Positions 3,012-31,104 of a DNA stretch of 61,595 nucleotides are shown here, piece by piece (within the stretch, counting starts at the first letter, position 1; each line of letters opens with the position of its first letter). The notes beneath the pieces are model-generated. The model had not been told where the DNA came from and did not search any database. It saw only the letters and a program-made list of their open reading frames with translations. A program made the position numbers and the translations under genes. This stretch comes from a virus: IMG/VR virus record IMGVR_UViG_3300037882_001257, positions 64,888 to 126,482 of that record, one strand, 5' to 3'.

Positions 3012-3080
3012 AGCCTCGCAAGGGAATCGAACCCTTAAAACTTGTTTACAGGACAAGTTGCCGCACCTTGGGAACGAGGC
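3012..3080 (-). tRNA. tRNA-Thr(TGT), short D-arm, C33
   Basis: loop CC-TGT-AA; acceptor GCCTCGT/GCGAGGC; 69 nt. Confidence 0.75.
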
Positions 3081-3278
3081 AGTTACTTACTAAAATCAGG
3101 GTCAGAATATACCATCGCATCCTCTGAAACTTGACAACAACTATCAATTTGAATATTGGTATAATGAGTACCAAGTAGGCGAGTGTTTTGTCTTATCAAC
3201 CAGTCCATCGGACTTTCGCCAATAACCAAATTTTGCGTCATTGTATCCATAGCAACACAATTTCGCCACCAACGAGCC

Positions 3279-3752
3279 TTAATGAAGTATTTCATTCCAG
3301 TCTCTTTCCAGTTTAATCCTACGGTAGATTTCCCTCTGTGAAAATCCAGAGCTTCCAGGTTGCTTACGGACAACGTATCTTTGAATGATGAAAGACGCCT
3401 GTTTAACTCGTCTTTTGTTCTTCAAAAATGGCTTTATCTCTACTAGGAAATCCTTGGCTTTCTGACCTGTTAAAACCCACGCTTTCCGGTTATCAGAGCA
3501 ACCCGTTACATTGCCACCAAACGCACCTTGTAGATACTCTAAAACAGACCAAATCTTCTCTACTCCACACAATCTAACTTCTAATACTCGCCAGCCCTTA
3601 CCGAGGTAATTTTTCCGTAGAATTATACTTCCACGAACGTCAAATATGCCCGCCTCGTGTGCTTTTTGAGTATCTAGTACCATTATACACCCATTTTCCG
3701 CAGAGTCAAGCAAACAACCGAGGAATCGGACACCCCCTCGCCTGTGCCTCAT
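3279..3752 (-). CDS. LAGLIDADG-family homing endonuclease-like protein (start uncertain)
   Basis: AHEAGIFDVRGSI motif followed by FGG..W..G.KA..FL..IKPFL..K. Confidence 0.65.
   Translation of the reverse strand: MRHRRGGVRFLGCLLDSAENGCIMVLDTQKAHEAGIFDVRGSIILRKNYLGKGWRVLEVRLCGVEKIWSVLEYLQGAFGGNVTGCSDNRKAWVLTGQKAKDFLVEIKPFLKNKRRVKQASFIIQRYVVRKQPGSSGFSQREIYRRIKLERDWNEILH
3682..3709 (-). promoter_or_regulatory. sigma70-like promoter
   Basis: TTGACT-N16-TATAAT. Confidence 0.65.
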
Positions 3753-4272
3753 CCTGCAAGTGCCAATAAGCCATTTCCACCTGGGTTTTGCCCGGATGGA
3801 AAGCGCCAGTAACCACCTTCCAATATTGCCCGTCGTTTCTCAGCATTTGAGTAATGTCTTGGTCTATTACAATCGCCTCTTCTTTTGTCTGGTTTCTACC
3901 GATAGGAACATACTCTTTTTCCCTCATTAATAGAAAGTTAATGTTGTCGAAGTTATTGTATATGTCTTTAACAGCATTTATCCATGACTCAGGATAATAC
4001 TTGGCTGAATAATGAGCAGACAACAAAAGGGGAGAGTCTGATATGACGAAATCGACTTGGCCCACCAACCGCTCTATCTGCATCAGTTGCTTCCCGAAAA
4101 TATACGGTTGGCAAGCTAGAGCTTTCTTACGCTCTTCCCACGTAAAAATCTTGGCAGTCTCATGTGCAAGCTCACAAGAGATACCCTGCTGTTTCATCAA
4201 TGAGAATAGACCCGCTGCTGTCGTAGACTTACCAGCCCCAGGCCCTCCAAAGAAGTTGATTATGCTTGTCAT
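3706..4272 (-). CDS. P-loop NTPase/kinase (NadR/AAA_28-like)
   Basis: GGPGAGKST Walker A; ISDSPLLL; GRNQ. Confidence 0.75.
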   Translation of the reverse strand: MTSIINFFGGPGAGKSTTAAGLFSLMKQQGISCELAHETAKIFTWEERKKALACQPYIFGKQLMQIERLVGQVDFVISDSPLLLSAHYSAKYYPESWINAVKDIYNNFDNINFLLMREKEYVPIGRNQTKEEAIVIDQDITQMLRNDGQYWKVVTGAFHPGKTQVEMAYWHLQDEAQARGCPIPRLFA

Positions 4273-4892
4273 TTTTTCTCACCAGTCAAGGTTAGATTAA
4301 ACCCAACCACGCGACACTTGTAGTCAGTATCACCAACTTCTCTACGTTCCTCTACCACTAAGGTTCCGTATTTGGTCTTAACGTCATAAGTTTCCCCTTC
4401 GTACTGAAGTATCTTAGGTTCGTCATTAACTATTGTAATAGTGTTCCTCTTAAACCTCTTCCGAGACGCGGTACTCCTCGTCCAGTTTCTACCAAAACCC
4501 AAAGGTTTCTCCATAGTGGTTACGGAATAGTATTCGGTCTGATTAAGACAGCTTAGAATAACTGCTTCGTTGACCGCCGCTCTTTTGAGCAGTTGAGCCT
4601 GTTCTCTGTACTGATAGCATGTGTATATCAGCGTAAGAGATACTACTAAAAGCAGAATATGACTAAGGTACTTCATCAGCATCACCTAGAACAATTACTG
4701 TTAGGTCCTCTGGCAGAATATCAATTTCTGCTTCGTCTAATAGACATTCAATATGTGCCCTTGCACCAGTTTCTACTGACATATCAAAGCTAATGCTTTG
4801 AGCCTTTAGTTGTGGCATTATATCTACTCCGTTTTGGTCGAGTAGTTCGCAACACTGCCTACGACCGTTTCCACAGCTTTTAACTATAAGTT

Positions 4893-5468
4893 TCATTTAT
4901 ACGAGGTACTCTCTGAATGGTGGTCCACTTTAACGATTTCCCGCGAAGCCATCAACTCTATAATATACTCGATGGACACCGGTTTGTCAAATACGTCCAC
5001 CCCGACATCCTGACGCTTGCGCCCGCCGTGGTCGTGCGCTCCGTGAGAATGCCCATAAAGATGAATGGAACCTCTAGCGTGTTCATTCCACACATCCATA
5101 GCATAGTGAAATAGGCAGAATAACGTACCGTTATGGCGAAACTCTAGGTAGTCTTGCGCAGAAGAGAAAAGGCGGGAAAATCCCAGTTCCTTCAACTTGC
5201 CGTCGTGATTACCATAGATTAGATGCACGTTCTTACAATAGATTCTATCTCTGAACAGTGGAATATTCTTTCTATTTCCGAATGCAAAGTCTCCCAGGTG
5301 ATAGAGAGTATCATTCTCACCAACAGTGGAGTTAATAGACTCTATAAGAAACCCGTCCATTTCCTCGACAGAGGCATAATTTCTATAGCCTCTTTCCCAC
5401 GAAGAAACGAGGGGGCCGGCGATGTTCTTGTGTTGAAAGTGGGTGTCCGACCAAAAGTAGATTGACAT
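4893..5468 (-). CDS. calcineurin-like metallophosphoesterase
   Basis: SDTHF, LGD, GNHD, HY, GHSH motifs. Confidence 0.9.
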   Translation of the reverse strand: MSIYFWSDTHFQHKNIAGPLVSSWERGYRNYASVEEMDGFLIESINSTVGENDTLYHLGDFAFGNRKNIPLFRDRIYCKNVHLIYGNHDGKLKELGFSRLFSSAQDYLEFRHNGTLFCLFHYAMDVWNEHARGSIHLYGHSHGAHDHGGRKRQDVGVDVFDKPVSIEYIIELMASREIVKVDHHSESTSYK

Positions 5469-5469
5469 C

Positions 5470-5631
5470 TTAACGTCCCGTTTCTTCCATTTTGAGTGCT
5501 AACCTCATAAGGTACTTATTCTGAATTTCCGCCGCTCGCGCAGCGTTGTAGCGCGGGGCACAGCACCGCTTGAATTTCTTGGTGCTACCGCACACGCATT
5601 TGGCGTTCCGCCCTATCTTAGTCATAACCAT
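5470..5631 (-). CDS. SEC-C zinc-binding motif protein (likely start MVMTKIGRN)
   Basis: KIGRNAKCVCGSTKKFKRCC. Confidence 0.7.
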   Translation of the reverse strand: MVMTKIGRNAKCVCGSTKKFKRCCAPRYNAARAAEIQNKYLMRLALKMEETGR

Positions 5632-5638
5632 AGAATTC

Positions 5639-5965
5639 CTACTTTCTTGAAACTGCCTCGGCAGCCTCATTATATGATGAACCGACCTTAGAGTAAAGGG
5701 CTTCCGCCGAAATTGTACCCGCCTCGGCCTTTTCATGGCAGGAAGGAATACTTTGGACTTCACGGAGTTTACACAGTGAAACCCCATTTTCTACTACATA
5801 TCCACCATTGGTCATGTTATCCCTGTTTGTGATATGGTGAGCATCTAGGTAAATTTCCGCTACTTCTTTACTATACAGCTTCCCGCACAGTTGGCAACGG
5901 TATCTATCCCGCTGGAAAACATCTCTACGAAACTGCGCCCTAACTTGCTTTTTAGTTGATGGCAT
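5639..5965 (-). CDS. HNH endonuclease
   Basis: RDRYRCQLCG..AHHI..NGVSLC..CH; likely start MPSTKK. Confidence 0.8.
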   Translation of the reverse strand: MPSTKKQVRAQFRRDVFQRDRYRCQLCGKLYSKEVAEIYLDAHHITNRDNMTNGGYVVENGVSLCKLREVQSIPSCHEKAEAGTISAEALYSKVGSSYNEAAEAVSRK

Positions 5966-6260
5966 TTTCAAAATCCTTTTCTTTCCACATGTATTGATGT
6001 GTGTCAATTAGCTTCACAATATCATTCCAGAGAGCTTCACCTGCCTCAGTAGAAATCGGCATAGATTCATCACCAACTTGTATAAAATACTTTCCAGGAA
6101 CAAAGAAACTACCCGGTTCATGTTTTAGTGAGACTATATATCCATTCCTGCCTCACCATAACTTATCCCAATGCGGCTTATGGTCTGATTCTACATATTC
6201 CCATCTATATAGGTGCATCCAACTACGAATTTTACGTACTAATTCTTCTTGTGTAATCAT
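5952..6260 (-). pseudogene. paralog of 6260..6586 interrupted by an in-frame TGA at 6153-6155
   Basis: 103-codon frame MITQEELVRKIRSW..DKLW*GRNGY..ENAIN; similar to the neighbouring gene on both sides of the TGA. Confidence 0.7.
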
Positions 6261-6586
6261 TAGCCTATTGCCTTCCTAAGTTTTTCTTCTTTTTCCTGTT
6301 CTTCTCTATTGCTTATACTAATTAGTATATCATTAAACATAAGATTCATATCATCAGTAGAAGGAAGTTGATAAGAATCACCATCTACGTCTAATGTGTA
6401 GTCATAGAAACCTTCATTACTCCATAAATTAACATAGCGGTATTTTCTACTTATTTTAACTCTATGCGCGCCACTGGCTCTATTGCAACTAACAGAAGAG
6501 ATTTCACCTCTTATACTGTAATACCATGTTGCACTACGATACCACGACTTAATCTTTTCTACTAAGTCCAAGTTATTAAGTTTCAT
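6260..6586 (-). CDS. hypothetical protein
   Basis: ORF coupled to neighbouring genes. Confidence 0.7.
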   Translation of the reverse strand: MKLNNLDLVEKIKSWYRSATWYYSIRGEISSVSCNRASGAHRVKISRKYRYVNLWSNEGFYDYTLDVDGDSYQLPSTDDMNLMFNDILISISNREEQEKEEKLRKAIG

Positions 6587-7025
6587 ATCTAGATTTCATC
6601 CTGTTAATTGTTTCGTAAGGGACATTATGAGTATTGCGCCTAAAACACTCGTCTACATCCCAGGCCCACGGCGTTTCCGATTGTCTATATTCAACAGAAT
6701 ACCCGTATGTCGCAGCTAAAGAGATATAGGGAGCCATTTCCTTTAGCGCGATATTAGTATTGTCGATAATCACAAGCGAGGTTCCGTAACCTAGCCCCTC
6801 TTTCATAGACTGCTCTGCTTGAGCTTTATTCCAGGCGTGAGCCTCTCCAATCCGCTTGAGGTTAAAGTCGTAATAGCCGTCTGGTCTTACCCAGTAATTA
6901 TCCGTAGAGCAAACATAGGTAGCTGTAGTTGGACACGTAACGAGAGCCTCACGAATGAGTTCTTGAACTCTCGTGGACTTTCCACTACCGGGAAGCCCTC
7001 TCATTAATACAAGTTTTTTACTCAT
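6576..7025 (-). CDS. P-loop polynucleotide kinase-like protein (AAA_33/N4BP2-like)
   Basis: MRGLPGSGKST, IIDNTN, RNTHNVP. Confidence 0.85.
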   Translation of the reverse strand: MSKKLVLMRGLPGSGKSTRVQELIREALVTCPTTATYVCSTDNYWVRPDGYYDFNLKRIGEAHAWNKAQAEQSMKEGLGYGTSLVIIDNTNIALKEMAPYISLAATYGYSVEYRQSETPWAWDVDECFRRNTHNVPYETINRMKSRYET

Positions 7026-8145
7026 CTATTTCCTGTCCTCTAGGTTGAACCAGTCTCCAAATAGTTTCGGAGTAGTCCTTGTTATCTAACATGTTAAATA
7101 TGATGCTCTTATAGTCGTAATCAACTAAACGATTAGCTATATCTTTGCGGCTACCGCCCTTGGAAAGGACTTCATTCAGCTTTGCCTTAGCATCATCTTC
7201 GATGCTCTTATAACGAAGCTTAATCTTATCAGCTATATCTGTCACATACTGATAGAACTCGTCTGGAACCTTGTCTAACCACTGAGATAAGTCAGCATTT
7301 GCACGAAGCTGCTCCCAAACCCGTCTAGGAGTTACACCTGTCATTATCTTGTGTAATCGGCAGTATTCAGCGAACTTATATTTCATGCGGAAACCATTGT
7401 CGAACACTAGGACGTAGCCCTCTTCGTTTTCGACAGGCTCTACATATTGTAGTTGGTCTAAATACTGGACGTGGGGCAATTGCTTTCTAACGCACTCCCA
7501 ACCAAGTCTACTAACTAACCGGAAATCATCCCAGTTGTCTAGGCCGGTTTCGTTATCAATTACCGCTAACAAGGTCAACTCTTTCAGGCCCTTATAGTCA
7601 AGGACAATGCGGTTCTCTGGATAGATGATTTCCACTAAATAGGTGTGGCCTATTTTCAGGTATCTCAACATATCCGCGTACTTTGTCTGTAATAGGCGGT
7701 TACCCACTACTGCTTGGTCAGATTCAAACGAACCCCTAGAAGCAAGTTCCCACGTTTCGCTCTGAGGGTTAAAGTAGATTACGCCTAAGCTACCATCCAT
7801 TTTAGGATAGGCGGTAAAGCGCAGCCGTGGAATCTCCGTGAACTTCATACCAAACAGGTGGTGAAGATTATTACGGTAAGTACGTAGCTCATCCACGTTG
7901 AAAAACTTCGGAAACGGTCTACCCACAATGCGGTGCATGTAGTCTAAAACTAGACCGCGACACATGATGGTGGTTTTGTTCCAATAGCGTTCGATTTGAG
8001 TATTGGTTGTATAGTTGTAAATCCACAAATCGTACTTCGGGTGTTTACGCTTGGATACCCAACCGTTTTCAACGTGACCTTCGACAAGGGCATAAGCCTT
8101 GTCACTCAGTTTTGGTAGTTCCACTAACATAGCTTCGCTAACCAA
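7018..8145 (-). CDS. T4 Rnl1-family RNA ligase
   Basis: CRGLV, PFPKFFN, motif I KMDGSL, EGYV, KYK..EY. Confidence 0.9.
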   Translation of the reverse strand: MVSEAMLVELPKLSDKAYALVEGHVENGWVSKRKHPKYDLWIYNYTTNTQIERYWNKTTIMCRGLVLDYMHRIVGRPFPKFFNVDELRTYRNNLHHLFGMKFTEIPRLRFTAYPKMDGSLGVIYFNPQSETWELASRGSFESDQAVVGNRLLQTKYADMLRYLKIGHTYLVEIIYPENRIVLDYKGLKELTLLAVIDNETGLDNWDDFRLVSRLGWECVRKQLPHVQYLDQLQYVEPVENEEGYVLVFDNGFRMKYKFAEYCRLHKIMTGVTPRRVWEQLRANADLSQWLDKVPDEFYQYVTDIADKIKLRYKSIEDDAKAKLNEVLSKGGSRKDIANRLVDYDYKSIIFNMLDNKDYSETIWRLVQPRGQEIDE

Positions 8146-8651
8146 GAGTTAGCCTCTTCTTGTGTTAAGTCATTCAAATCCTTAGCGGGACCAGGGACGG
8201 AGTACGCCTCAAACCCCATTTTCTTTAGTTTAGCCCCCGCAGGGTCGTTATCTGCTATGACTATTGACCTTCTGTAACCGTTGATGGACTTAAAGTAGCC
8301 CAAGAGGGCTTTGCTGGGGGTTGCAGTCAAGGCAGCGACGGCGGAATATCCCGCGTTTACGGCCCTCACCGCGTCCCACACGCCCTCTGTTATAAAGATT
8401 ACGTCTGGTGAGTCGTAGAAGTGTTCTAAGCCCCACAACATGCAATAGGCGTCGTTCGCCTTGTTAATATACCGACCATGTTCGTCGTTGCTACGTAATT
8501 TTCCAACGGCCCAATTGTAGCGGGAATAGCCTATGAGCTTACCGTCTAAGGTCCAGAGGGGAAACCTTACGATTTCCTCCTCATAACTAACCCACGCTCT
8601 TATGCGAGGGGTCAGACCTCTCTGTAATAGGTGTTCCTGAAACTGGGTCAT
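8124..8651 (-). CDS. Toprim-domain (primase-like) protein
   Basis: ITEGVWDA, ADNDPAG, KDLND. Confidence 0.8.
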   Translation of the reverse strand: MTQFQEHLLQRGLTPRIRAWVSYEEEIVRFPLWTLDGKLIGYSRYNWAVGKLRSNDEHGRYINKANDAYCMLWGLEHFYDSPDVIFITEGVWDAVRAVNAGYSAVAALTATPSKALLGYFKSINGYRRSIVIADNDPAGAKLKKMGFEAYSVPGPAKDLNDLTQEEANSWLAKLC

Positions 8652-9500
8652 AGTTCTCTTCTTCTAACTCTCGTATCATCAGTATTAATCCAGTGCTTAG
8701 TGGTTACTAGGACACCGTGATAAATAATCAAGAAAGCGACACTTATAACAAACATTGGCACGAGATTTATAGCCGTCTTATCGAAAAACGACAGCCTATT
8801 AAAGCTCTCTTGCCTAAATTGTAACAGGTCTAACTTCATCCATAAAGCCAACATGAGTAAATTAGTGGCAAGCGGAAAGTGAAAAATCCAGGGTGCTATT
8901 CTCATGCTTACAGTCCTGCATACTCGTTTGTGTAGTCATCTAGTTGCTTACGAAGTTTAGCATTTTCTGCCTCTAGCTCAGCATAGCTCTTCCAGTTTCC
9001 CCCGGAACACCGCTTGTCTAAGTACCTAGAACAATTCTTAAGCATTTCCTCTTTATTACCAACTCTATTATCACCAAGATTACCGTCATTCAAAACCTTA
9101 TATAGTTCTTGGTCGTCAAGCCAACACCTATCGTCTGCGTGTTGGTCTCTATGAGTGCGGATTGCGGCCTCTAGTTGCGAGACACGGCAACGGTCAGTTT
9201 GACGAGCGCCAGCTTCCCCGTACTGAGACATACAGTTCCACTGAATACCGAAGTCAGCTTCGTTTAATAATTCAGCATTGCACCAAGGGCATTTATTGTC
9301 CATCTATTTGTTCCTTAGAGCTTTGCTCTTTAACTTCGTTTTTATGTTGCCGGTTTCTCTGACAATAGGGGCATGACCCGCCTGGGCGACAAGAACGGTC
9401 TACTCTACCGCTTTTATGGTAGTTTTTCCGGTGGTCTTTTCTCTTCGGATAGTTTTTGTCGAAGCTCATGGCACTCCAATAAAATCTCTTGTATACGAAG

Positions 9501-9528
9501 ATTATACCTCCGAATCGCGTAGCGTCAA
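9501..9528 (-). promoter_or_regulatory. sigma70-like promoter
   Basis: TTGACG-N16-TATAAT. Confidence 0.7.
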
Positions 9529-9542
9529 GTGGTCTACCAACG

Positions 9543-9565
9543 AAAAAAGCCCGCAATGCGGGCTT
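9543..9565 (-). terminator. intrinsic terminator ending the matrixin/cytochrome operon
   Basis: AAGCCCGCATTGCGGGCTTTTTT on the minus strand. Confidence 0.85.
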
Positions 9566-9584
9566 AAATTCTTCACAGGTGAGC

Positions 9585-9923
9585 TTATTCAGCTTCCTTG
9601 TACAACTCTTTCATCAGCGGAACACTAGAGGTCTTTGCTGCTGCTACAATAGCATTAACAAACTTATCTCCGTGCTGGCGATATTCTTTGTAGCTCATAC
9701 TTCTACGTACATGTACGCGAAGGGCAAGCTTTTGCCACATATTAAGGTTCTTAGCTGTCTTAACAGCAGCTTCCGGGGTCTTTCTGCAAGCCTGAAGCAC
9801 AGTAATAAGCTCAACAATAATAGGGGCCAGAGTGAGAATAATGGAAGGGTCAAACGCCTGACCTTCCTTAATTACACCCATCTTTTTTGCTACTTCTACA
9901 GCAGCCTTTTCTGAAGCTTTCAT
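9585..9923 (-). CDS. hypothetical protein with a hydrophobic helix
   Basis: FDPSIILTLAPIIVELITVLQAC. Confidence 0.7.
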   Translation of the reverse strand: MKASEKAAVEVAKKMGVIKEGQAFDPSIILTLAPIIVELITVLQACRKTPEAAVKTAKNLNMWQKLALRVHVRRSMSYKEYRQHGDKFVNAIVAAAKTSSVPLMKELYKEAE

Positions 9924-9934
9924 GGTTTACAACC

Positions 9935-10390
9935 TTATCTAAAGAGGCGGTCGATTAGAAGGGCACGGCCAACATTACCTTGTTGCAATTCACGAGCAAC
10001 TGCCGCTTCTAGGAAAATATCACGCGCATTGGCACCAACGCCAAGTCTAGCACGCACTAGGCGAGAACCGCGAACCTGAACAAACTGGCGAACAGCAAAG
10101 CGCTGTCTTATCGCACGACCAAACGCATCTCTAAGTGGTTGACGAGAAGCCTTTTCGCACACGCGACCGTACTGGTCAACATAAACCTCAACAACCTTCA
10201 CTCTACGAACCTTTTGGCGTTGCTTTACAACAACCTTACGAACCTCTTGCTCTAGTTGATAGTCGTCATAACGAACTTCAACACGGGCAGGGGCAGCGTA
10301 GTCCGTAGCCAACACAGGGGCGCTCATAGCAATAGCTAGGATACCCGCAACAATACCGCTCAACACTTTATTTACTCTCATTTTCATCAA
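9935..10390 (-). CDS. exported basic hypothetical protein
   Basis: signal peptide ending AMSAPVLA; Arg/Val-rich. Confidence 0.65.
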   Translation of the reverse strand: MMKMRVNKVLSGIVAGILAIAMSAPVLATDYAAPARVEVRYDDYQLEQEVRKVVVKQRQKVRRVKVVEVYVDQYGRVCEKASRQPLRDAFGRAIRQRFAVRQFVQVRGSRLVRARLGVGANARDIFLEAAVARELQQGNVGRALLIDRLFR

Positions 10391-22704: not shown

Positions 22705-22778
22705 TGCGTTATACGGGAGTCGAACTCGTACTAAAACATTGGAAGTGTTTTGTGCTGACCATTGAACACTAATAACGC
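22705..22778 (-). tRNA. tRNA-Gly(TCC)
   Basis: loop CT-TCC-AA; acceptor starts GCG. Confidence 0.9.
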
Positions 22779-22834
22779 ATAACCGAAACTGGCTTTTGCT
22801 TAAAGCGGGCGACCAGTAAACCGCTCATTCTAGT

Positions 22835-22862
22835 ATTATACCTCGAAATCCGCCAGGGTCAA
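22835..22862 (-). promoter_or_regulatory. sigma70-like promoter
   Basis: TTGACC-N16-TATAAT. Confidence 0.7.
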
Positions 22863-22955
22863 GCCCCCTCGTTTATTTCTCTGATTTTATCGAGAGCCTT
22901 CTTTGTCTCGTGGCTTCACAACATCTTTTGTAGCCGGATGATACTCATACATAGC

Positions 22956-23728: not shown

Positions 23729-23732
23729 GAAG

Positions 23733-23804
23733 TGCCCCTATTTGGACTTGAACCAAAATCTGTCGCTTTAAGAGAGCGCAATGTTACATTAACACCATAG
23801 AGGC
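23733..23804 (-). tRNA. tRNA-Lys(CTT)
   Basis: loop CT-CTT-AA. Confidence 0.85.
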
Positions 23805-24049
23805 AAAGTGGCGAAGCCACTAACGAACTTTAGTGAGATACTTGTCTGAGACCCAAAATTCAGTTGGGCATCTAGTAAAACAAGCCACAGACACCAAGTA
23901 ATCACCGTCGTTAGTAGCGGACTTGTCCACTATAGTTCCGACGATAGCCTTCTTAAGGAACCCGTCTTTATAGTCTACAGAAATCCGCACTTTGTCACCG
24001 TAATATAGCATGGGCTTAGCCCTTTCTTAATAAGTACAAAACAACAAAG

Positions 24050-24121
24050 AGCCGAGTAAGGGAGTCGAACCCTTTTTCCAATCTTACCAAGATTGAGTAA
24101 TAACCGTTATACTAACAAGGC
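24050..24121 (-). tRNA. tRNA-Thr(GGT)
   Basis: loop TT-GGT-AA. Confidence 0.88.
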
Positions 24122-24296
24122 AGTCATACCCAGTAATTTAACCCATCCTCATCCTTAGCTGCAATACCAATTTTGTAATTTCTGTCGAGTGGTCTAAGTA
24201 ACCATGTCACTATTCTAGCCCACCACAGGAATCTAGTAGAGCAAACCACTTTGGCAGCACCACCTAAAGCCGGATAAATTAGGATTTCATACATAG

Positions 24297-24378
24297 CGGA
24301 GGACACGGGAATCGAACCCGCAACACCTTTCGGTGCAACTGCTTTCCAAGCAGCCTGCTTACCAGTCGCTTATCCTCC
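24297..24378 (-). tRNA. tRNA-Ser(GGA)
   Basis: loop TT-GGA-AA; variable arm; G73. Confidence 0.88.
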
Positions 24379-24678
24379 AAGACCCGCCCATTATGGCCGT
24401 CACCGACTCTCTGAATCGGGATAGGACCAGCGGGTGCTGCTTTCGCAGTCTCACAAAGTTGCTTACGCAACTGACATTTAAGGTGTTAGCCTAACCAACC
24501 GAAACCACCTGTGTCACAATACCGTTTTCGACCACTACATTGACTCTGCTGTTATGGGCGTCAGTCAAGGGTGGGGTCTTCACACCGTCTAGCTTAGCAA
24601 TACGAAGCGTAAAACCCTCTTTCTTGACGATAGCTTTTACTTCATCAAGTGTTCTACCAATTAGATGACTTCTCTTCA

Positions 24679-25161
24679 TTATTTGACAGCCTTTTTAAGA
24701 GCGGAAGGGCCTTCAACATCATCGAAAACGCGCAGCACTTCGTGGCTCACAAACTCAGGAGCAAGTGGAGCAGTCAAGTCACCAATCGAAAATTCATATG
24801 GGGCTGGCAGGCTATCATACTTGCCATCGTTTGCCACTAAAACCGCATGGACGTGACCACCTTCAGGAACCTTAAAGGTTACTTCCGATACAGTTGCGGG
24901 AAAATCATAGACTTTCTCAACGCCTTCTGTTTCATCGCCCTTGTAGGTGAGAACAGTCAACTTTTGAGTCTTAACGTCTGGAGAGACGGAAGGAACCCAA
25001 AACAAACGTACTTCTGCTACTTTCATAAAAACTCCCTTTATTTGGTATGATAAATTTGTTGGTGGTTCGGGCGGGGTAAAATCGTAAAAATATAACAAGG
25101 TCCATAACACTGCTATAATAAGAGCAGTAATTCCAAACATGAATAACATTTCCACAAGCAT
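24679..25161 (-). CDS. membrane-anchored Ig/FN3-like protein
   Basis: N-terminal TM segment, PPTNL, beta-rich. Confidence 0.5.
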   Translation of the reverse strand: MLVEMLFMFGITALIIAVLWTLLYFYDFTPPEPPTNLSYQIKGVFMKVAEVRLFWVPSVSPDVKTQKLTVLTYKGDETEGVEKVYDFPATVSEVTFKVPEGGHVHAVLVANDGKYDSLPAPYEFSIGDLTAPLAPEFVSHEVLRVFDDVEGPSALKKAVK

Positions 25162-25175
25162 GTTTTATTCCTTAG

Positions 25176-25243
25176 TGGACCGTATCGGTATCGCGCCGAT
25201 TTTTCGACTTTGCAGGAGTCAAAATTAGACTTCTAAACAGCCC
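25176..25243 (-). tRNA. tRNA-Ala(TGC), miniaturised
   Basis: G3-U70, A73, loop CC-TGC-AA, T-loop CGCGATA; 68 nt. Confidence 0.72.
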
Positions 25244-25547
25244 GTCTCAAAACACGGGTCAGTCTCACAATCTCTTTCAAGCGACTAAATAACAGGTAAT
25301 ACTAAACCAGCCCGCTCTTTCTTCATATTGTTTAGTCTACAGCTTAACTCGTCAACAACCATTTTCTTAGCTGCGTCAAAGTCTTTTCCGTAGACAAACA
25401 CGGTAATAGCGCCTGGGTCTAGTACCACTTTCACATACTCAGTACCATTGGTAGATTCTAAAGCTTCTTCGGCGTATTTTATACGCTTATCTAAGTCTTT
25501 GGCCTTATCTAAAACCGCCTGAGCTTCGTCTAAAATGTTTTTCATAG

Positions 25548-25620
25548 TGGGCAACCTGGGAGTCGAACCCAGCACAAGAAACTTATCAGGTTCCTCCGAA
25601 CAACCAGTTCTGCGATGCCC
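25548..25620 (-). tRNA. tRNA-Ile(GAT)
   Basis: loop CT-GAT-AA. Confidence 0.88.
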
Positions 25621-25983
25621 TCTAAAACCCGTAATATGCCTTCTCAGCCTCAGACCAGTAGACTTCGTCTTTGCCGTCTGGTCCACCGTCGTCTTGCCAC
25701 TTGTAGTAAGCTACTTTAGCTACCTCATGGTCTCGATTAACTAACTCAAACATTACCGTATTAAATAATACACCCGGAGCCTCTGCAAGCTCGACTTCTG
25801 AGTGCCACCCAAAAGTTTGACTACCAGAGACAGTGTATGACTTACCTACCTCAAGATACTTGTCCGCAAGCTCTCTATGATAGTCAAGTCCATTCTCACC
25901 AAGATAGACTACTTTGCTCCCCTTGGGGAACCACTCACCAAATTCCATGAGACTGCGTCCTCCTAAAGTTATGAAATAACAAG

Positions 25984-26054
25984 TGGTCCTCATGGGAGTC
26001 GAACCCACAATGCAGGCTTGTCGTGCCTGAATGATACCATTTCAATAGAGGACA
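25984..26054 (-). tRNA. tRNA-Val(GAC), C33
   Basis: loop AC-GAC-AA. Confidence 0.75.
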
Positions 26055-26056
26055 GG

Positions 26057-26130
26057 GGTGAATAGCCAGGGTCGAACTGGCACTTTCTGGTTCACAGCCA
26101 AACGTGCAGAGCCGCTACACTATACTCACC
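26057..26130 (-). tRNA. tRNA-His(GTG)
   Basis: loop CT-GTG-AA; G-1/C73. Confidence 0.9.
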
Positions 26131-26197
26131 ATAAATGCAACTACGGATGGTCCACTCCCGCACTTATCTGTCCCTTGACAGCTTCGTTAGTTGCAAG

Positions 26198-26268
26198 CAT
26201 ACAGTAGAGGATTTGAACCCCTTTGCGTCTGTGTTGGAGACAGACCGCACTCCCAGGTGCAACTGTAT
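26198..26268 (-). tRNA. tRNA-Trp(CCA)
   Basis: loop CT-CCA-AC; G73; 6-bp anticodon stem possible. Confidence 0.85.
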
Positions 26269-26488
26269 ATAGTGGTCAGCTTGCTGACCTAATCAACTCA
26301 AATCTCTTCGTAAATGGAGCATATAGCTCAAAAACCGCTATACTTTCCACTTCTTTCCAGCTCTCAAAATATCCCTTAGCCCCACTAATAGCCCGCTCAA
26401 AAGCCTCATCACCCTTACCCTTGTAGTAACCGTGGTGGTGAGGCACACCGTTGATAACCGACACTAAGATGAAATTTTCCATTTCCGA

Positions 26489-26516
26489 ATTATATACCCG
26501 TTTTCGCCAGTGTCAA
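26489..26516 (-). promoter_or_regulatory. sigma70 consensus promoter
   Basis: TTGACA-N16-TATAAT. Confidence 0.8.
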
Positions 26517-27415
26517 GAGGCCGCAGACAGCCTCACTTAAAATCTTTTGAGTCCACCAGCCCACATAACGCAGCAACAAAAATAGCCCCGGCGACCCCCA
26601 AACAAATCAGGAGAATCACCAAAATTATTGCCAGCGGAACCAAAGGCGCAAAAACCAACCACAGCGGGATGGCGGGCAAAACCCCACCAAACTTAAGGGT
26701 TGCTAGTACCACAAACATAATCAGCAGCCAGGGCGCTGTACATGCCACAACCGTAGTATTCTTAGACTTGCTCATAGGTGTTTAGTGTTTACGTAATCAG
26801 TTTCTTTGAAGGGGGAGTTATAATGCCAGCCGCCTGAGCATGGTAGCTTTCAACTATTGCGACCAACTCTGGACTAGCCTCGCACGCCACTAAAATGTCA
26901 CCAGCCAAATTAACTTCCTGGTCTACGTCTTTAGCGAATTCGATAAAAGGTCGAAAAGCTATCTGTTCTCCATGAACATACAGAAAAAGTAGGTGACTAT
27001 ATACTTCGTCTTTAACATGAACACCAATTACGTCTCGTGGGTGTCCATCACGCAACTTCAAGTAGTGGATTTTCATCAGCTTCGCCTTCCTGTGTGTTAA
27101 GTCCTGTTAGTCCAGCGAGTTCCCGAAGGGTACTCTCAAATCGTGGACCTTCTGGATGGTCCGTTTCCATCGTCAACAAATTTTTGTAGGAGTCGTATCC
27201 CTCGTACCACTGGTCCATTCGGAATTCAGAGGCGACAGGGGCCTTCTTAGGATGTAGTCTCCAGGCGGAAATCAAACCCTGTGTAAAGTATGCGGGTTCA
27301 TAGCCCTCTGGTAGAGCAGGCTTCGTAAAGAGTGGTAATTCACCCTCTGCTTGCGGCTGTTCTACGACTTCATCCTCAAAAATAGTAGTTATCACGCTGC
27401 GCGTTCCTTAATTGA

Positions 27416-27492
27416 GTGGCCTTTCGGAGAATCGAACTCAACGACTTTCAGTTTCAAAGACTGACGTGCAAAACCATTACACTAAAAGGCTA
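27416..27492 (-). tRNA. tRNA-Gln(TTG), bulged T-stem
   Basis: loop CT-TTG-AA. Confidence 0.8.
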
Positions 27493-27495
27493 TAT

Positions 27496-27903
27496 TTACT
27501 TACGCTTCTTCAGCGCTTCTAGCACCTGTCTCGCATGTTCCAAATTGCCATAAGCGGAGTCTTTAACAGACTCACTATCTTTCAGGTCGTGCGAGGCTTG
27601 CTTTACCAAACTCTCTGCTACCGCGTAGGCTGATAGACTATCTTGATAGCCATTCTTTGCCTGTTCAAACTCTTCCTGAGCCGCCCGCACATCTGCTTGA
27701 GCCTTGAGCAATTCTATCTCAATGCCCAACTTTTCCGCTTCGTGTCTCTTAGTGTGTGCTTCCGATAGTGAAGCGGACGCATTTCTTAGTGCATGAACCG
27801 CGTTATTACGGGCATCAGTTGCCTGTTTCTTAACGTGGCAAACGCTTGGTTTCCATGAAAACATTGCTAAAACCCTTTTAATGAAATCTTCGATTGTTGT
27901 CAT
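27496..27903 (-). CDS. coiled-coil hypothetical protein
   Basis: Ala/Glu/Lys-rich helical composition. Confidence 0.65.
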   Translation of the reverse strand: MTTIEDFIKRVLAMFSWKPSVCHVKKQATDARNNAVHALRNASASLSEAHTKRHEAEKLGIEIELLKAQADVRAAQEEFEQAKNGYQDSLSAYAVAESLVKQASHDLKDSESVKDSAYGNLEHARQVLEALKKRK

Positions 27904-27936
27904 AAACTGCCCCTACGGTAAAAATAACTTGTTTAG

Positions 27937-28007
27937 TGGGCCATAAAAGAATCGAACTTTTTTCTTCTCGGTGTAAACGAGGGATTCTACCAGTGAACTA
28001 ATGGCCC
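27937..28007 (-). tRNA. tRNA-Val(TAC)
   Basis: loop TT-TAC-AC. Confidence 0.88.
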
Positions 28008-28008
28008 G

Positions 28009-28081
28009 TATCGGCAACAGGAGTCGAACCTGCATGAGTCTTATCTTGAGTAAGACATGTCTCCATTTGCATCATGCCGAC
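28009..28081 (-). tRNA. tRNA-Leu(CAA), short variable loop
   Basis: loop CT-CAA-GA. Confidence 0.82.
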
Positions 28082-28168
28082 ATAAAGTATCAACCTGAGT
28101 TAGTTGCCATCGAGCGCCCAAGTGTGGATGGCCCACAGTGGACTACAGGAACCCTGATGTTGATACAG

Positions 28169-28242
28169 TAGCAGATAAGAGAGTCGAACTCTTAACCACA
28201 ATGTTTTAAGCATTGCCGCACTGCCAATTAGCGTAATCTGCC
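28169..28242 (-). tRNA. tRNA-Leu(TAA), short variable loop
   Basis: loop CT-TAA-AA. Confidence 0.85.
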
Positions 28243-28246
28243 AGAG

Positions 28247-28320
28247 TAACAGGTGAGGGAGTCGAACCCACAACCACGACGTTCTAAGCGTCGTTGCACT
28301 GCCAATTAGCATAACCTGTC
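28247..28320 (-). tRNA. tRNA-Leu(TAG), short variable loop
   Basis: loop CT-TAG-AA. Confidence 0.85.
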
Positions 28321-28331
28321 ATTAATACTAG

Positions 28332-28405
28332 TACCACGTTGGCGATTCGGACGCCAATTCACCATTTTTTGAAAATGGCTGCATTACCAATTAGCATAAC
28401 GTGGC
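28332..28405 (-). tRNA. tRNA-Leu(CAA) second copy, short variable loop
   Basis: loop TT-CAA-AA; T-loop TCCGAAT. Confidence 0.8.
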
Positions 28406-28420
28406 ATTACTTCACTTAAT

Positions 28421-28448
28421 ATTATACCCCGAAACCCGTCAGAGTCAA
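28421..28448 (-). promoter_or_regulatory. sigma70-like promoter directly upstream of the tRNA-Leu cluster
   Basis: TTGACT-N16-TATAAT. Confidence 0.75.
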
Positions 28449-28862
28449 GTCGATTTCATTAGCCCAGGGAATTAAAAGTGGTTCTTCCCTATGTCCACAA
28501 GCTATACACCCTACCGAAGCAATTCCAATACACAAACATAGACTATCCGTGTTAATAGCACCACAGTTAAGACATGCGGACGATGTGATGCATCCTCCCC
28601 ATTCCATTCTACACTTAGTATTAGCCAAGTTGTACTCTTGGGGGTTGTCAGTATAGCCAGTTATGGTAATCAAAAATCCTCCAAATACCACTGTCCTTCG
28701 TAGGTCTTTATATATGTCTTAGCACAATAATCACATTTAAATTGTACGTCTGTTTCCCAGTACCACCCATGCCAACAGTGGTGTTCGGGTTCCAGGCAGC
28801 GTACAACATGCCACTGATGAACATGAAAGCCGCTAGCACTAAGGATAAAGTTCCATATTTCT

Positions 28863-29459
28863 CTAATCAATGTAGAACGGCCCACTCAATGTTGCTGTCT
28901 TAGCTGCGTCAAGTATCGTTAGTAAAGTTCCGTCACAAGCGTAAAAACCCTGCTTCGTGTATTTTATAAGCCTACGAAGCGAAGCCTGAACATTGCCTAT
29001 TTTATGGACTCTTAATCGTTTACGCCCAAGGTCATACAGTGTCCAAGGACCAACCCATATGTCCTTACCGTCTGTTATGAGTTGACAGTTAGTATAGTCA
29101 AAGTCATCAATCACCTTTTCAGGTGACTCCCAGACTTTGTGGATTAACTGTACCTTAAGCCCATTAGTAACAAACGTGGTGTTGTGTGGCCTGACATCCC
29201 GACTATCGCCATGTGATTCAATCAGGTTCGCGGCTATATCTAGATAGCCCTGCCCCTTAAAGAATATGTCAAAGTCACTATCTAAAGGTTGACCAAGAAC
29301 AGTCCTTCGCAATGCCCCGCCGCCTAGCCAAGTTCCCTCGTTCAGAAGGACTCGACCGAACAGCTTACCATGCAGTATTTCATACAACGGAGTCTGAATA
29401 TACGGCTTACCAGTAGTCTGCCAAACAAAATCTTCAAGGTCATACTTAAACATTAGCAT
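28863..29459 (-). CDS. class II (CCA-adding/poly(A) polymerase-like) nucleotidyltransferase, head domain only
   Basis: GGGALR..G..DSDFDIFF; FDYTNCQ (resembles DFTIN). Confidence 0.7.
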   Translation of the reverse strand: MLMFKYDLEDFVWQTTGKPYIQTPLYEILHGKLFGRVLLNEGTWLGGGALRRTVLGQPLDSDFDIFFKGQGYLDIAANLIESHGDSRDVRPHNTTFVTNGLKVQLIHKVWESPEKVIDDFDYTNCQLITDGKDIWVGPWTLYDLGRKRLRVHKIGNVQASLRRLIKYTKQGFYACDGTLLTILDAAKTATLSGPFYID

Positions 29460-30675
29460 TCGTCCTCAGACACCAAGCGAAAATTGTTCGTATGTCTCAT
29501 TGTTTCAATATGCTGGTCTTCCATTGACACTAACATACAATGGCCCGCCTGTGGATAGTGTTCGGTAATAAAGGTGAACAGAGTCCACGCTCCACTACCA
29601 TATCCCAACGACCCATAAAATTTAAGCTTATGTTGCTCTGGAAGATTTTCCCAAAATTCTTTATTTAGAGTATCAGGGTCAAATACTACAGTATCACCTA
29701 GCCTAAACATCAGAAATAGTCCTTTTCCGGCTTGATTCCTAGTGCGTCCCGCACCTGTTTCTTGGCGCGAGCCTCCCCTATATGAACCATCATCAACAAT
29801 TGGTCGATGTGTTTCTCAGTTGGAGCCTCTCCAAAGAAAATTGGCAACCCATAGCCATTCACCTGAATTGACTTCTCAAACAGGTAGAAAATCAGCCCGT
29901 CCTTCTCAATGCGTTTTGCACTCATTTTATCCTACTACGCTAAAGAACCATAACGAGAATTTGTCATCCGATTGAAGCTTTTGAAGCTTTTGAGCTAATT
30001 GCTTATGCAAATCCATTAGAGATTCTATATCAATGGAACCTTCTAATAATGTAACACGACCACCATCCTCTTTGTCAGCTACATTATAGCCCACATAAAT
30101 AATATCCTCATCGTAAGAATAGGTTATTTGTAGGTCTGGAAAAGCAGCTTGCAACCCGTCTGATAGTTCATAGAATGATTCTGCTGCTACTCCTAAGACG
30201 GAATATTTTTCTTCTGATTCCTTAACTAGGGTTTTCTCTGTGTGAGAAACCTGTCCAGTCTTAGGGTTATACCTATTCTGTTGCTCATACACAGCAGGGC
30301 TTACAACGGCCTCAACTTCATCCTTGTGGATAGCTAAGCCATAAACACAATGTTGTGTATAGTCAATACCCATTGGCTTTCCTTAAGTCGAAGACTCTCC
30401 AAAATCCTTAGCGGTCCACCCGTTATCAATTTCCCACATTTCAAAGTAATAGGACATTACACACCTGTCTGCATTATCCCACTTTCGATACGACACCATC
30501 GGATTCAGACTGCTTATCTCAGATATATCTAACTCAAATCCAGTCAGGTCGAAGCGGTTTTTAACGTGATTCGTAGCCTTTTTAAGGGTAGAGAAAACCC
30601 CGATACTGTCATCTTGGTCCTCGTGTCTACCAGTACGAGAGACATGCCAAATAAATTTTAAGTTCTTACTCATAG

Positions 30676-30746
30676 TGGGAATGGAGAGAGTCGAACTCTC
30701 GTGTCTCTGTTTTACAGACAGTACCCGCCAACCGTGCGTCACTCCC
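30676..30746 (-). tRNA. tRNA-Tyr(GTA), short variable loop
   Basis: loop CT-GTA-AA; 71 nt. Confidence 0.8.
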
Positions 30747-31036
30747 AAGTGTGGCATTAACCACTAATTTCCATCGTGAGCAATATCAAGTTCAGCTTGA
30801 AAAGCTTCTTCTTTTCTCTCTTGCTCTGCTCTTTGCAAGTAGTTAGTTTCGTCTCTACCACGCGGAGCTATCAGCGCCTCATCAACTTCTGCAATACAGA
30901 AATCAATGAACTTTCTTATCTCTCTTTCGCACTGACCACCAGGAGCATTACCTGCTAGTACATAACACCCATATAAATAAGTGATGTGTTCTTTGAAGAA
31001 ATCATGCTGATTCACAATGTCTTGATATTTCATAAG

Positions 31037-31104
31037 CCCTCTGTACCGGAGTCGAGCCGGCTCACCGTGGTTGACAGCCACAGGTCTGTACCCACAGACA
31101 GAGG
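31037..31104 (-). tRNA. tRNA-Asp(GTC), miniaturised
   Basis: loop CT-GTC-AA; G73; 68 nt. Confidence 0.75.

What the first reader, a model, noticed from the sequence alone, without database searches (positions are those of the whole stretch)
3012..31104. Family of miniaturised 68-69 nt tRNAs with shrunken D-arms and extended anticodon stems
Seen in Thr(TGT) 3012, Arg(GCG) 22150, Ala(TGC) 25176 and Asp(GTC) 31037. The D region is reduced to a mini-hairpin next to the acceptor stem (e.g. TTAGA-AG-TCTAA, CTGT-GGGT-ACAG), the anticodon stem can extend to 7-8 bp, and identity elements are kept (Ala G3-U70, Asp G73). Trp at 26198 is a milder version (1-nt linker, 6-bp stem). Known: similar trade-offs occur in tRNA-Pyl and mitochondrial tRNA-Ser(UCN). 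Inference: a selected alternative tRNA architecture. These are the only full tRNA-Ala and tRNA-Asp in the window, which argues against simple decay.
Basis: partly seen in the sequence, partly recalled or inferred. Interest (0 to 1): 0.7.

Follow-up and report, generated by a model that had tools for sequence, protein, structure and literature searches.

The report
Compact-core tRNA genes in a phage
Four gaps in this uncultured phage's 38-gene tRNA cluster hold real but shrunken tRNA genes, including its only alanine and aspartate tRNAs; they follow a compact design, like pyrrolysine tRNA, that recurs in many phages and mobile tRNA arrays and that standard tRNA models miss.

Summary
On the minus strand lie 68-69-nt tRNA-shaped genes for Ala-UGC (25176-25243), Asp-GUC (31037-31104), Arg-GCG (22150-22218) and Thr-UGU (3012-3080).

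In Ala, Asp and Arg a 3-5-bp D hairpin follows the acceptor stem with no linker. The anticodon stem has 6-8 bp and the variable region 1-3 nt. Thr keeps a 2-nt linker and only a 2-bp D stem, so it is a looser case. Trp (26198-26268) is intermediate.

The Rfam tRNA model misses all of them. Standard ARAGORN finds only Thr.

They are not chance or decay:
- All four share the C-T trailer found after 36 of the window's 38 tRNAs.
- All are intergenic.
- All carry the expected identity elements.
- They supply the only Ala and Asp tRNAs of the 126-kb record.

The design is widespread. A spacing-only pattern retrieved dozens of compact tRNA-Ala genes from phage contigs and from genomic tRNA arrays. 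Every one had G3:U70, which the pattern did not specify. The zero-linker D hairpin covaries in 22 compact Ala and in 11 compact Arg sequences.

No close orthologues of this phage's own copies were found, so Asp rests on anatomy alone.

This scan has already noted the same class on other DNA. I found no published description. Charging and decoding remain untested.

The parts
25176..25243 (-). Compact tRNA-Ala(UGC), 68 nt; the only Ala tRNA of the record. It has G3:U70 and A73, a zero-linker D hairpin TTAG-AAGT-CTAA and an 8-bp anticodon stem. Atypical features: C33, T-loop CGCGAUA, and no GG in the D loop.
   Evidence: minimum-energy fold = compact cloverleaf; training sequence of model R1; strict scanner hit; CT trailer.
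31037..31104 (-). Compact tRNA-Asp(GUC), 68 nt; the only Asp tRNA of the record. It has G73, loop CUGUCAA, a zero-linker D hairpin CTGT-GGGT-ACAG, a 6-bp anticodon stem, a 3-nt variable region and T-loop CUCGACU.
   Evidence: The cloverleaf is at -26.1 against a minimum of -29.0 kcal/mol.
22150..22218 (-). Compact tRNA-Arg(GCG), 69 nt. It has A73 and a D hairpin CCT(A)-UGGAU-(A)AGG with no linker and an A after GG (A20-like). The anticodon stem is 7 bp and the T-loop UUCGAUU is canonical.
   Evidence: Rfam 25.8 bits; R1 29.7 bits; member of a covarying compact Arg set.
3012..3080 (-). Short tRNA-Thr(UGU), 69 nt. It has G1-C72 and C2-G71, keeps a UC linker, and has a 2-bp D stem with a 7-nt loop containing GG. 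The anticodon stem is 7 bp and position 33 is C. It is a looser relative of the compact Thr-UGU genes of related phages.
   Evidence: (R1 41 bits). Compact Thr-UGU in G001 and G018.
26198..26268 (-). tRNA-Trp(CCA), 71 nt, an intermediate form. It has a 0-1-nt linker, a 4-5-bp D stem with a 6-nt loop, a 6-bp anticodon stem and a 4-nt variable region.
   Evidence: It does not appear in the Rfam lists.
1715..38526 (-). The phage's tRNA and small-ORF array that holds the compact genes: 34 ARAGORN tRNAs plus the three that only mitochondrial mode finds, all on one strand.

Best explanation
These are genuine phage tRNA genes of a compact-core design.

What changes. The usual two-base linker (positions 8-9) is absorbed into a short D hairpin that stacks directly on the acceptor stem. 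Positions 26 and 44, and sometimes their neighbours, form Watson-Crick pairs, so the anticodon helix has 6-8 bp and the variable region 1-3 nt. The 12-bp acceptor/T minihelix and the 7-nt anticodon loop stay unchanged.

Proposed life cycle (inferred):
- They are transcribed with the rest of the array.
- They are cut at the 5' end by RNase P, and at the 3' end at the shared discriminator-C-U site.
- CCA is then added.
- Host AlaRS, AspRS, ArgRS and ThrRS charge them. Their identity elements lie in the acceptor stem, discriminator and anticodon, or for Arg in a retained A after the D-loop GG.
- They decode GCN, GAY, CGY and ACN codons for the phage, probably as a private tRNA supply when host tRNAs are scarce or are destroyed by host defences.

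Shown: the anatomy, class-level covariation, the shared trailer and the identity elements. Inferred: processing, charging, decoding and the benefit to the phage.
For: - Anatomy and unaided folding.
- All four lie between ORFs on the array strand.
- Together with the canonical genes they complete all 20 amino acids. No other Ala or Asp tRNA is in the record.
- C-T follows the discriminator in all four and in 36 of 38 tRNAs. Only 3 of 20 spurious mitochondrial-mode hits have it, and the CT background is 5.8%.
- The structural scanner gives 49 hits against 1 in shuffled DNA.
- The same design occurs in phages related by DnaE: G001 has Thr-UGU, Ala-UGC, Ala-CGC and Arg-ACG; G018 has Thr-UGU, Arg-UCU, Arg-ACG and CAU.
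- A spacing-only Ala pattern gave 94 viral and 100 genomic hits. Of the unique matches, 43 of the first 71 and 61 of the further 116 have good acceptor and T stems. All 104 of those have G3:U70 and A73, and many encode CCA.
- Covariation: 22 compact Ala sequences are 93.8% paired against 66% in shuffles and 40-52% in slid controls, and all 4 D-hairpin pairs show double changes. Eleven compact Arg sequences are 95.5% paired, with 20 of 22 pairs showing double changes.
- Every compact Arg keeps GGA in the D loop. This matches the A20 determinant of bacterial ArgRS (PMC9976931).
- The phage also encodes an Rnl1-type RNA ligase and an RNA-repair HAD domain. This fits a conflict over tRNAs (PMC10264068, PMC11555353).
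Against: - No expression, charging or decoding data exist.
- No close orthologues of the four window genes were found, so none has gene-specific covariation. No second compact Asp turned up in my sample, which was collected mainly through Ala patterns.
- Ala and Thr have C33 instead of the near-universal U33.
- Ala also lacks the T54-psi55 consensus and the D-loop GG.
- The Asp cloverleaf is 2.9 kcal/mol less stable than a competing fold, and Asp has A38 rather than the C38 determinant.
- Thr lacks a convincing D stem.
- The record is estimated 84% complete, so canonical Ala or Asp genes could lie in the missing part.
Confidence: 0.72

Rival explanations
1. They are decaying relics: former tRNA genes that lost part of the D arm and are no longer used. 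The phage relies on host tRNA-Ala and tRNA-Asp.
For: - C33 in Ala and Thr.
- The non-consensus T-loop and GG-less D loop of Ala.
- The weak D stem of Thr.
- The competing fold of Asp.
- No orthologues to show conservation.
Against: - Every stem of Ala, Asp and Arg is fully paired: acceptor 7/7 and T stem 5/5, with an anticodon helix of 6-8 bp. Decay should hit stems as well as loops.
- Lengths and segment sizes match a fixed plan that covaries in many unrelated phages.
- Identity elements and the CT trailer are intact.
- C33 also occurs in two otherwise ordinary Glu tRNAs of this phage, and in a compact Thr-UGU from another array.
Confidence: 0.13
2. They are tRNA-shaped RNAs that do not decode. 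One option is processing signals that let RNase P and RNase Z cut the polycistronic transcript next to small ORFs. Another is decoys for host tRNA-cutting defence nucleases.
For: - Arg, Asp and Ala sit directly in front of ORF start codons (ctATG, cttATG, and an AAGGA site followed by ATG).
- Phage tRNAs are known to counter tRNA-targeting defences (PMC10264068, PMC11555353).
- The phage carries RNA-repair genes.
Against: - Canonical tRNAs of the array have the same tight tRNA-ORF junctions, so punctuation does not need a special design.
- The anticodons are exactly those missing from the set (Ala, Asp) or complementary to it (Arg-GCG beside Arg-UCG; Thr-UGU beside GGU and CGU).
- Amino-acid identity elements are kept across the whole class: G3:U70 in 104 of 104 Ala, and GGA in all Arg. 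That is unnecessary for a mere cutting signal.
Confidence: 0.12
3. They are chance cloverleaf look-alikes in intergenic DNA.
For: ARAGORN's mitochondrial mode gives about 20 other hits in the window that are not standard ARAGORN tRNA calls, most of them likely spurious and the one examined lying inside an ORF.
Against: - The strict scanner finds 1 hit in 1.92 Mb of shuffled DNA (both strands), or about 0.03 expected per window, against 2 observed.
- The CT trailer in 4 of 4 has a chance of about 1e-5.
- The candidates have the right strand, an intergenic position, the matching identity elements and the missing anticodons.
Confidence: 0.01

Closest known systems
tRNA-Pyl, especially the Methanomethylophilus alvus type (review PMC7609411)
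   Same: No nucleotide between the acceptor and D stems, a 4-nt D loop, an anticodon stem longer than 5 bp and a 3-nt variable region. The compact core still gives an L shape.
   Different: The window's genes have sense anticodons (UGC, GUC, GCG, UGU) and the identity elements of Ala, Asp, Arg and Thr. Most class members keep GG in the D loop and a UUCGA T-loop. No PylRS is involved. The anticodon stem is not broken by a bulge.
Mammalian mitochondrial tRNA-Ser(UCN), a 'type I' mt-tRNA (PMC7609411)
   Same: A small D loop, a 6-bp anticodon stem and a 3-nt variable region. G18 G19 and the T-psi-C motif are retained, so the D/T elbow contact is kept.
   Different: The mitochondrial tRNA keeps one linker nucleotide and is a single organellar isoacceptor. 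Here the linker is zero and the design spans several amino acids in phage and mobile arrays.
Canonical class I bacterial and phage tRNA (Rfam RF00005)
   Same: A 7-bp acceptor stem, a 5-bp T stem with a 7-nt loop, a 7-nt anticodon loop, a discriminator base and the standard identity elements.
   Different: There is no U8/N9 linker (except in Thr). The D arm is 11-14 nt instead of 15-19. Positions 26:44 form a Watson-Crick pair. The scores fall below the Rfam cut-off.
Compact-core phage tRNAs noted earlier in this scan on other DNA (phiCbK-like Caulobacter phage Thr/His/Ala; compact Arg including Myxococcus phage Mx1; actinophage Thr; soil-phage Gln). These are AI notes, not publications.
   Same: The same plan: a miniature D arm set against the acceptor stem, a 6-bp or longer anticodon stem and a short variable region. 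The same tools miss them.
   Different: This is a different phage lineage (split DnaE, rIIA, 44% GC). Here the design also covers Asp-GUC and Arg-GCG, and it supplies the phage's sole Ala and Asp tRNAs. The Ala copy has unusually divergent loops.

Membership tests
Canonical tRNA (Rfam RF00005) | Score at or above the family's gathering cut-off (29 bits) | tested here: not met
   Arg scores 25.8 bits. Ala, Asp, Thr and Trp are not reported even at E<10.
Canonical tRNA (Rfam RF00005) | 7-bp acceptor stem, 5-bp T stem with a 7-nt loop, and a 7-nt anticodon loop | tested here: met
   Acceptor 7/7 and T stem 5/5 in all four, each with a 7-nt loop closed by a pair.
Canonical tRNA (Rfam RF00005) | Two-nucleotide linker (U8, N9) and a D arm with a 3-4-bp stem and a 7-11-nt loop | tested here: not met
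   Ala, Asp and Arg have a zero-nucleotide linker and a 12-13-nt D arm. Thr has the linker but only a 2-bp stem.
Canonical tRNA (Rfam RF00005) | U33 before the anticodon | tested here: inconclusive
   U33 is present in Asp and Arg. Ala and Thr have C33, and so do two ordinary Glu tRNAs of the same phage.
Compact-core phage/array tRNA (plan 7 | 4-(3-5)-4 | 2 | 6-7-6 | 3 | 5-7-5 | 7 | 1) | D hairpin starts immediately after acceptor position 7 | tested here: met
   Met for Ala, Asp and Arg; not met for Thr.
Compact-core phage/array tRNA (plan 7 | 4-(3-5)-4 | 2 | 6-7-6 | 3 | 5-7-5 | 7 | 1) | A sixth anticodon-stem pair (26:44), with 3 or fewer unpaired variable nucleotides | tested here: met
   Anticodon stems are 8, 6, 7 and 7 bp, with 1, 3, 2 and 2 variable nucleotides. 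The sixth pair covaries in the Ala and Arg sets.
Compact-core phage/array tRNA (plan 7 | 4-(3-5)-4 | 2 | 6-7-6 | 3 | 5-7-5 | 7 | 1) | The structure is kept through compensatory changes in other members of the same specificity | tested here: met
   Met for the Ala set (22 sequences) and the Arg set (11 sequences), each including the window's copy. For Asp it was not testable, because no second compact Asp was found.
Compact-core phage/array tRNA (plan 7 | 4-(3-5)-4 | 2 | 6-7-6 | 3 | 5-7-5 | 7 | 1) | Amino-acid identity elements match the anticodon | tested here: met
   Ala: G3:U70, G2-C71, A73. Asp: G73 and GUC. Arg: A73, C35, G36 and GGA in the D loop. Thr: G1-C72, C2-G71, G35, U36. The reference sets are in PMC9976931.
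Compact-core phage/array tRNA (plan 7 | 4-(3-5)-4 | 2 | 6-7-6 | 3 | 5-7-5 | 7 | 1) | Aminoacylation and ribosomal decoding | not testable with these tools
   This needs biochemistry.
tRNA-Pyl | CUA anticodon and a cognate PylRS | tested here: not met
   The anticodons are UGC, GUC, GCG and UGU. The resemblance is architectural only.

The most novel reading that the evidence does not exclude
Compact-core tRNAs form a distinct, phage- and mobile-array-borne lineage of working elongator tRNAs covering many amino acids. Their shrunken core is itself the adaptation. It would keep them usable by host synthetases, EF-Tu and ribosomes, while making them poor substrates for host tRNA-targeting defence nucleases or modification enzymes that read the D-arm/core shape. 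In this phage the design would have fully replaced the standard one for Ala and Asp.
Probability: 0.25. Interest if true: 0.85.

Novelty: new variant of a known kind. Interest (0 to 1): 0.62.

Why it matters

If these genes work, bacterial translation systems routinely accept sense-codon tRNAs with a pyrrolysine-like compact core. Three consequences follow:
- Phage tRNA repertoires are under-counted by Rfam-type tRNA models (tRNAscan-SE itself was not run on these genes). Here a '20-amino-acid' set looked as if it lacked Ala and Asp.
- There would be a natural test bed for which synthetases tolerate core shrinkage. So far these are Ala, Thr, Arg, Asp and CAU tRNAs.
- There would be a possible new route by which phages escape tRNA-directed immunity.

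Such tRNAs would also be natural scaffolds for orthogonal tRNA engineering.

Tried and rejected
- Close relatives through neighbouring proteins. The search for related loci with three array ORFs found nothing. The one homologue found by the search for homologous proteins had no contig on record.
- blastn of Ala, Asp and a G001 Ala against cultured phages gave only weak partial hits. The YB07 tRNA-Ala hit is a canonical 74-nt gene.
- Loop-fixed, stem-free patterns to catch orthologues. Asp gave nothing in metagenomes. Ala gave nothing in viral contigs. Ala in metagenomes gave three hits that do not fold as tRNAs and are chance matches.
- A fixed-spacing Thr-UGU pattern returned only 4 sites. 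Apart from G001's own copy these were one sequence found three times; all are compact. That is too few for a covariation count.
- I considered whether these belong to the 'permuted D-arm' 77-79-nt phage tRNAs noted earlier in the scan. I rejected this, because nothing D-loop-like follows the anticodon arm here.
- The genome search with model R1 lost known members at its first filter, for example the G018 Thr, so I did not use it for counts.
- The MAFFT alignment of all seven first examples misplaced Arg, so model R1 was built from five.
- The mitochondrial-mode hit at 19574-19649 has a CT trailer but lies inside a long ORF and folds poorly. I treat it as a false positive.

Full report
**Setting**

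The window is bases 64888-126482 of a 126,482-bp uncultured-virus record, estimated 84% complete. The phage has 44% GC. It encodes rIIA, a T4-type RNA ligase 1 and a DNA ligase. A long ORF of 2,726 aa that an earlier scan note calls the tape-measure protein, and the split DnaE from the same notes, lie upstream of the window.

ARAGORN finds 34 tRNAs and one tmRNA, all on the minus strand of the window and none elsewhere in the record. Among these standard calls there is no tRNA-Ala and no tRNA-Asp.

**The observation**

The sequences at the four stated places read as follows, from 5' end to discriminator.

| Gene | Coordinates | Acceptor 5' | D region | Spacer | Anticodon arm | Variable | T arm | Acceptor 3' + discriminator |
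|---|---|---|---|---|---|---|---|---|
| Ala | 25176-25243 | GGGCUGU | UUAG-AAGU-CUAA | none | UUUUGACU-CCUGCAA-AGUCGAAA | A | AUCGG-CGCGAUA-CCGAU | ACGGUCC + A |
| Asp | 31037-31104 | CCUCUGU | CUGU-GGGU-ACAG | AC | CUGUGG-CUGUCAA-CCACGG | UGA | GCCGG-CUCGACU-CCGGU | ACAGAGG + G |
| Arg | 22150-22218 | AGCUGCG | CCU(A)-UGGAU-(A)AGG | C | UUCGUCC-CUGCGAA-GGAUGAA | AA | UUGAG-UUCGAUU-CUCAA | CGUGGCU + A |
| Thr | 3012-3080 | GCCUCGU | UC linker, CC-AAGGUGC-GG | C | AACUUGU-CCUGUAA-ACAAGUU | UU | AAGGG-UUCGAUU-CCCUU | GCGAGGC + U |

So three of the four have a D hairpin that begins right after acceptor position 7. Thr keeps a normal linker and has almost no D stem.

- Unconstrained folding returns exactly these cloverleaves for Ala, Arg, Thr and Trp.
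- For Asp a competing fold is 2.9 kcal/mol better.
- Only Thr is found by standard ARAGORN. All four are found in its mitochondrial mode.
- The Rfam tRNA model gives 25.8 bits to Arg, below its 29-bit cut-off, and nothing to the others.

Simple pair-extension gives 6-7-bp 'anticodon stems' for many ordinary tRNAs of this window too. The diagnostic feature is therefore the short 5' core: 15-16 nt between the acceptor strand and position 27, against 17 or more in the canonical tRNAs here.

**Are they more than chance?**

- All four lie between ORFs on the array strand.
- In 36 of the 38 tRNAs of the window the discriminator is followed by C-T, and all four candidates share this.
- Only 3 of the 20 other mitochondrial-mode hits do, and CT makes up 5.8% of dinucleotides on this strand.
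- I wrote a strict scanner for the plan: 7-bp acceptor with at most one mismatch, zero-linker 4-bp hairpin with a 3-5-nt loop, six anticodon-stem pairs, and a 5-bp T stem at fixed spacing. It hits Ala and Asp in the window. It finds 49 sites in 1.92 Mb of collected DNA (both strands scanned) against 1 in block-shuffled DNA.

**Relatives**

The array ORFs have no close relatives in the collections. The DnaE N-half has about 80 relatives at 50% identity or less.

- One relative, G001 (172.9 kb, complete), has a large tRNA array. It holds compact Thr-UGU (UAGA-UGGG-UCUA), Ala-UGC (CUAG-AGGG-CUAG), Ala-CGC and Arg-ACG.
- Another, G018, holds compact Thr-UGU, Arg-UCU, Arg-ACG and a CAU tRNA.
- A covariance model built from five of these scores the window's Thr at 41 bits and its Arg at 29.7 bits.

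**Is the design general?**

I searched for GGGG, then 24-25 N, UUGCA, 13-14 N, GGUUCGANUCC. This is an Ala-UGC tRNA whose anticodon lies 4-5 nt too close to the 5' end. The pattern says nothing about stems.

- It gave 94 sites in viral contigs and 100 in the bacterial and archaeal genome collection.
- Of the first 71 unique viral matches, 43 have a good acceptor and T stem.
- Of a further 116 unique matches (14 viral loci and 100 genomic loci), 61 do.
- All 104 of these have U70 opposite G3 and A73, and many encode CCA. None of this was specified.
- Most of the genomic tRNA-like hits sit in dense arrays of 12-32 tRNAs within at most 8 kb. These are mobile tRNA arrays or phage-derived DNA.

On 22 compact Ala sequences from different contigs, including the window's:
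- 93.8% of cells pair, against 66% after shuffling and 40-52% with slid partners.
- All four pairs of the zero-linker D hairpin, and all six anticodon-stem pairs, show changes on both sides.

For Arg, a loop-anchored pattern plus earlier hits gave 11 compact sequences with anticodons GCG, ACG and UCU:
- 95.5% of cells pair, and 20 of 22 pairs show double changes.
- The first D pair C:G is invariant and the D loop reads N-G-G-A-N.
- The A after GG corresponds to A20, the main determinant for bacterial ArgRS (PMC9976931).
- The window's Arg fits this set, sharing the A-A last 'pair' with L298.

The scanner also found compact Thr (UGU, CGU, GGU), CAU and other Arg genes in unrelated contigs. It found no second compact Asp. 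My sample was collected mainly through Ala patterns, so it is biased.

**What they most likely are**

The parts that RNase P, the CCA-adding enzyme, EF-Tu and AlaRS read are intact. These are the 12-bp acceptor/T minihelix and the 3' end.

The 5' side between the acceptor and the anticodon loop is fixed at 20-21 nt, and the 3' side between the loop and the T stem at 9-10 nt. In Ala and Asp, D stem plus spacer plus anticodon stem therefore add up to 12 stacked layers. That is about the length of the canonical anticodon/D stack with its tertiary layers (my inference).

Compact cores of this kind are known to give a working L shape. tRNA-Pyl is the main example, and the M. alvus type has no linker and a 4-nt D loop. 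Mitochondrial tRNA-Ser(UCN) has a 6-bp anticodon stem, a 3-nt variable region and retained G18 G19 (PMC7609411).

I therefore read the four genes as working tRNAs charged by host synthetases. Their anticodons complement the rest of the set. Ala and Asp are otherwise absent; Arg-GCG sits beside UCG; Thr-UGU sits beside GGU and CGU. The matching codons are common in the phage: Ala 7.4% of codons, Asp 6.0%, and CGY 35% of Arg codons.

Why the core is compact is open. The phage's RNA ligase 1 and an RNA-repair HAD domain fit a conflict over tRNAs, as do published cases of phage tRNAs escaping tRNA-cutting defences (PMC10264068, PMC11555353). Nothing here shows that compaction itself gives escape.

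**Weak points**

- Ala is the most deviant member. It has C33, T-loop CGCGAUA and D loop AAGU, and no orthologue with these loops exists in the collections.
- Thr also has C33. However, so do two ordinary Glu tRNAs of this phage and a compact Thr-UGU from an actinobacterial array with the same CCUGUAA loop.
- Asp stands alone and has a competing fold.
- The record is incomplete.
- No experiment bears on charging or decoding.

**Novelty**

Eight full-text searches and five papers read turned up no description of such tRNAs in phages. I cannot exclude one in journals outside the library.

This scan has already recorded the same class on other DNA: compact Thr/His/Ala in a phiCbK-like phage; compact Arg including phage Mx1; compact Thr in actinophages; compact Gln in soil phages. 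This window therefore adds members and two specificities (Asp-GUC and Arg-GCG) rather than a first sighting.

I tested the class claim independently here on other sequences. It held.

Noticed in passing
window 1715-38526, minus strand (all tRNA 3' ends): In 36 of 38 tRNAs the discriminator is followed by C-T, and no CCA is encoded. The exceptions are His (cc) and one Leu-CAA (cg). This looks like a shared 3'-processing signal of this phage.
   Followed up: partly
window 3012-3080, 25176-25243, 31252-31325, 38453-38526 (minus strand): Four tRNAs (Thr-UGU, Ala-UGC, Glu-UUC, Glu-CUC) have C at position 33 instead of the near-universal U. A compact Thr-UGU in locus L236 has the same CCUGUAA loop.
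   Followed up: partly
window, e.g. 22145-22149, 24291-24295, 25542-25546, 30670-30674, 31030-31036, 33363-33367 (minus strand): Nine of 38 tRNAs are followed within 2-4 nt by an ATG that opens a small ORF (ctATG). Any ribosome-binding site would lie inside the tRNA. This suggests tRNA-punctuated processing that releases near-leaderless mRNAs.
   Followed up: no
window 33522-33594 (minus strand): A tRNA-like gene scores 34.9 bits with Rfam but is not called by ARAGORN. It has loop AAUGAAC (A33), a U-U mismatch in the acceptor stem and an encoded CCA, unlike its neighbours.
   Followed up: no
window 34525-34597 and 35169-35239 (minus strand): Two further odd tRNA-like elements. One has a 6-bp anticodon stem and a 5-nt loop. 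The other ARAGORN reports as 'tRNA-???' with a two-base anticodon; Rfam gives it 48.3 bits.
   Followed up: no
window 7018-8145 and 38547-39077 (minus strand): There is an Rnl1-type RNA ligase (PF09511, phrog_562) and a protein with the HAD domain of 'Swiss Army Knife' RNA-repair proteins (PF18143). This is a likely tRNA-repair kit flanking the tRNA array.
   Followed up: partly
L299:1470-1540 (Pseudomonas phage phiK7A1, MT740307.1 27337-27407): An unannotated 71-nt tRNA-Ala(UGC) with a GG-less D arm has the same acceptor strands as the window's Ala (GGGCUGU/ACGGUCC) and an encoded CCA. In the 3-kb stretch examined, the record's tRNAscan-SE-based annotation lacks six tRNAs that ARAGORN finds.
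   Followed up: partly
L087:18189-18261 and 18461-18533 (G001, minus strand): Arg-UCG and Arg-UCU candidates in the related phage G001 are found only by ARAGORN's mitochondrial mode. They may belong to the 'permuted D-arm' class noted earlier in this scan.
   Followed up: no
L192, L223, L226, L280 (genome-contig hits): These loci have GGGG...UCCA ends with G3:U70 and often CCA, but no anticodon stem and no neighbouring tRNAs. They are probably tmRNA-type or other alanine-acceptor mimics rather than tRNAs.
   Followed up: no
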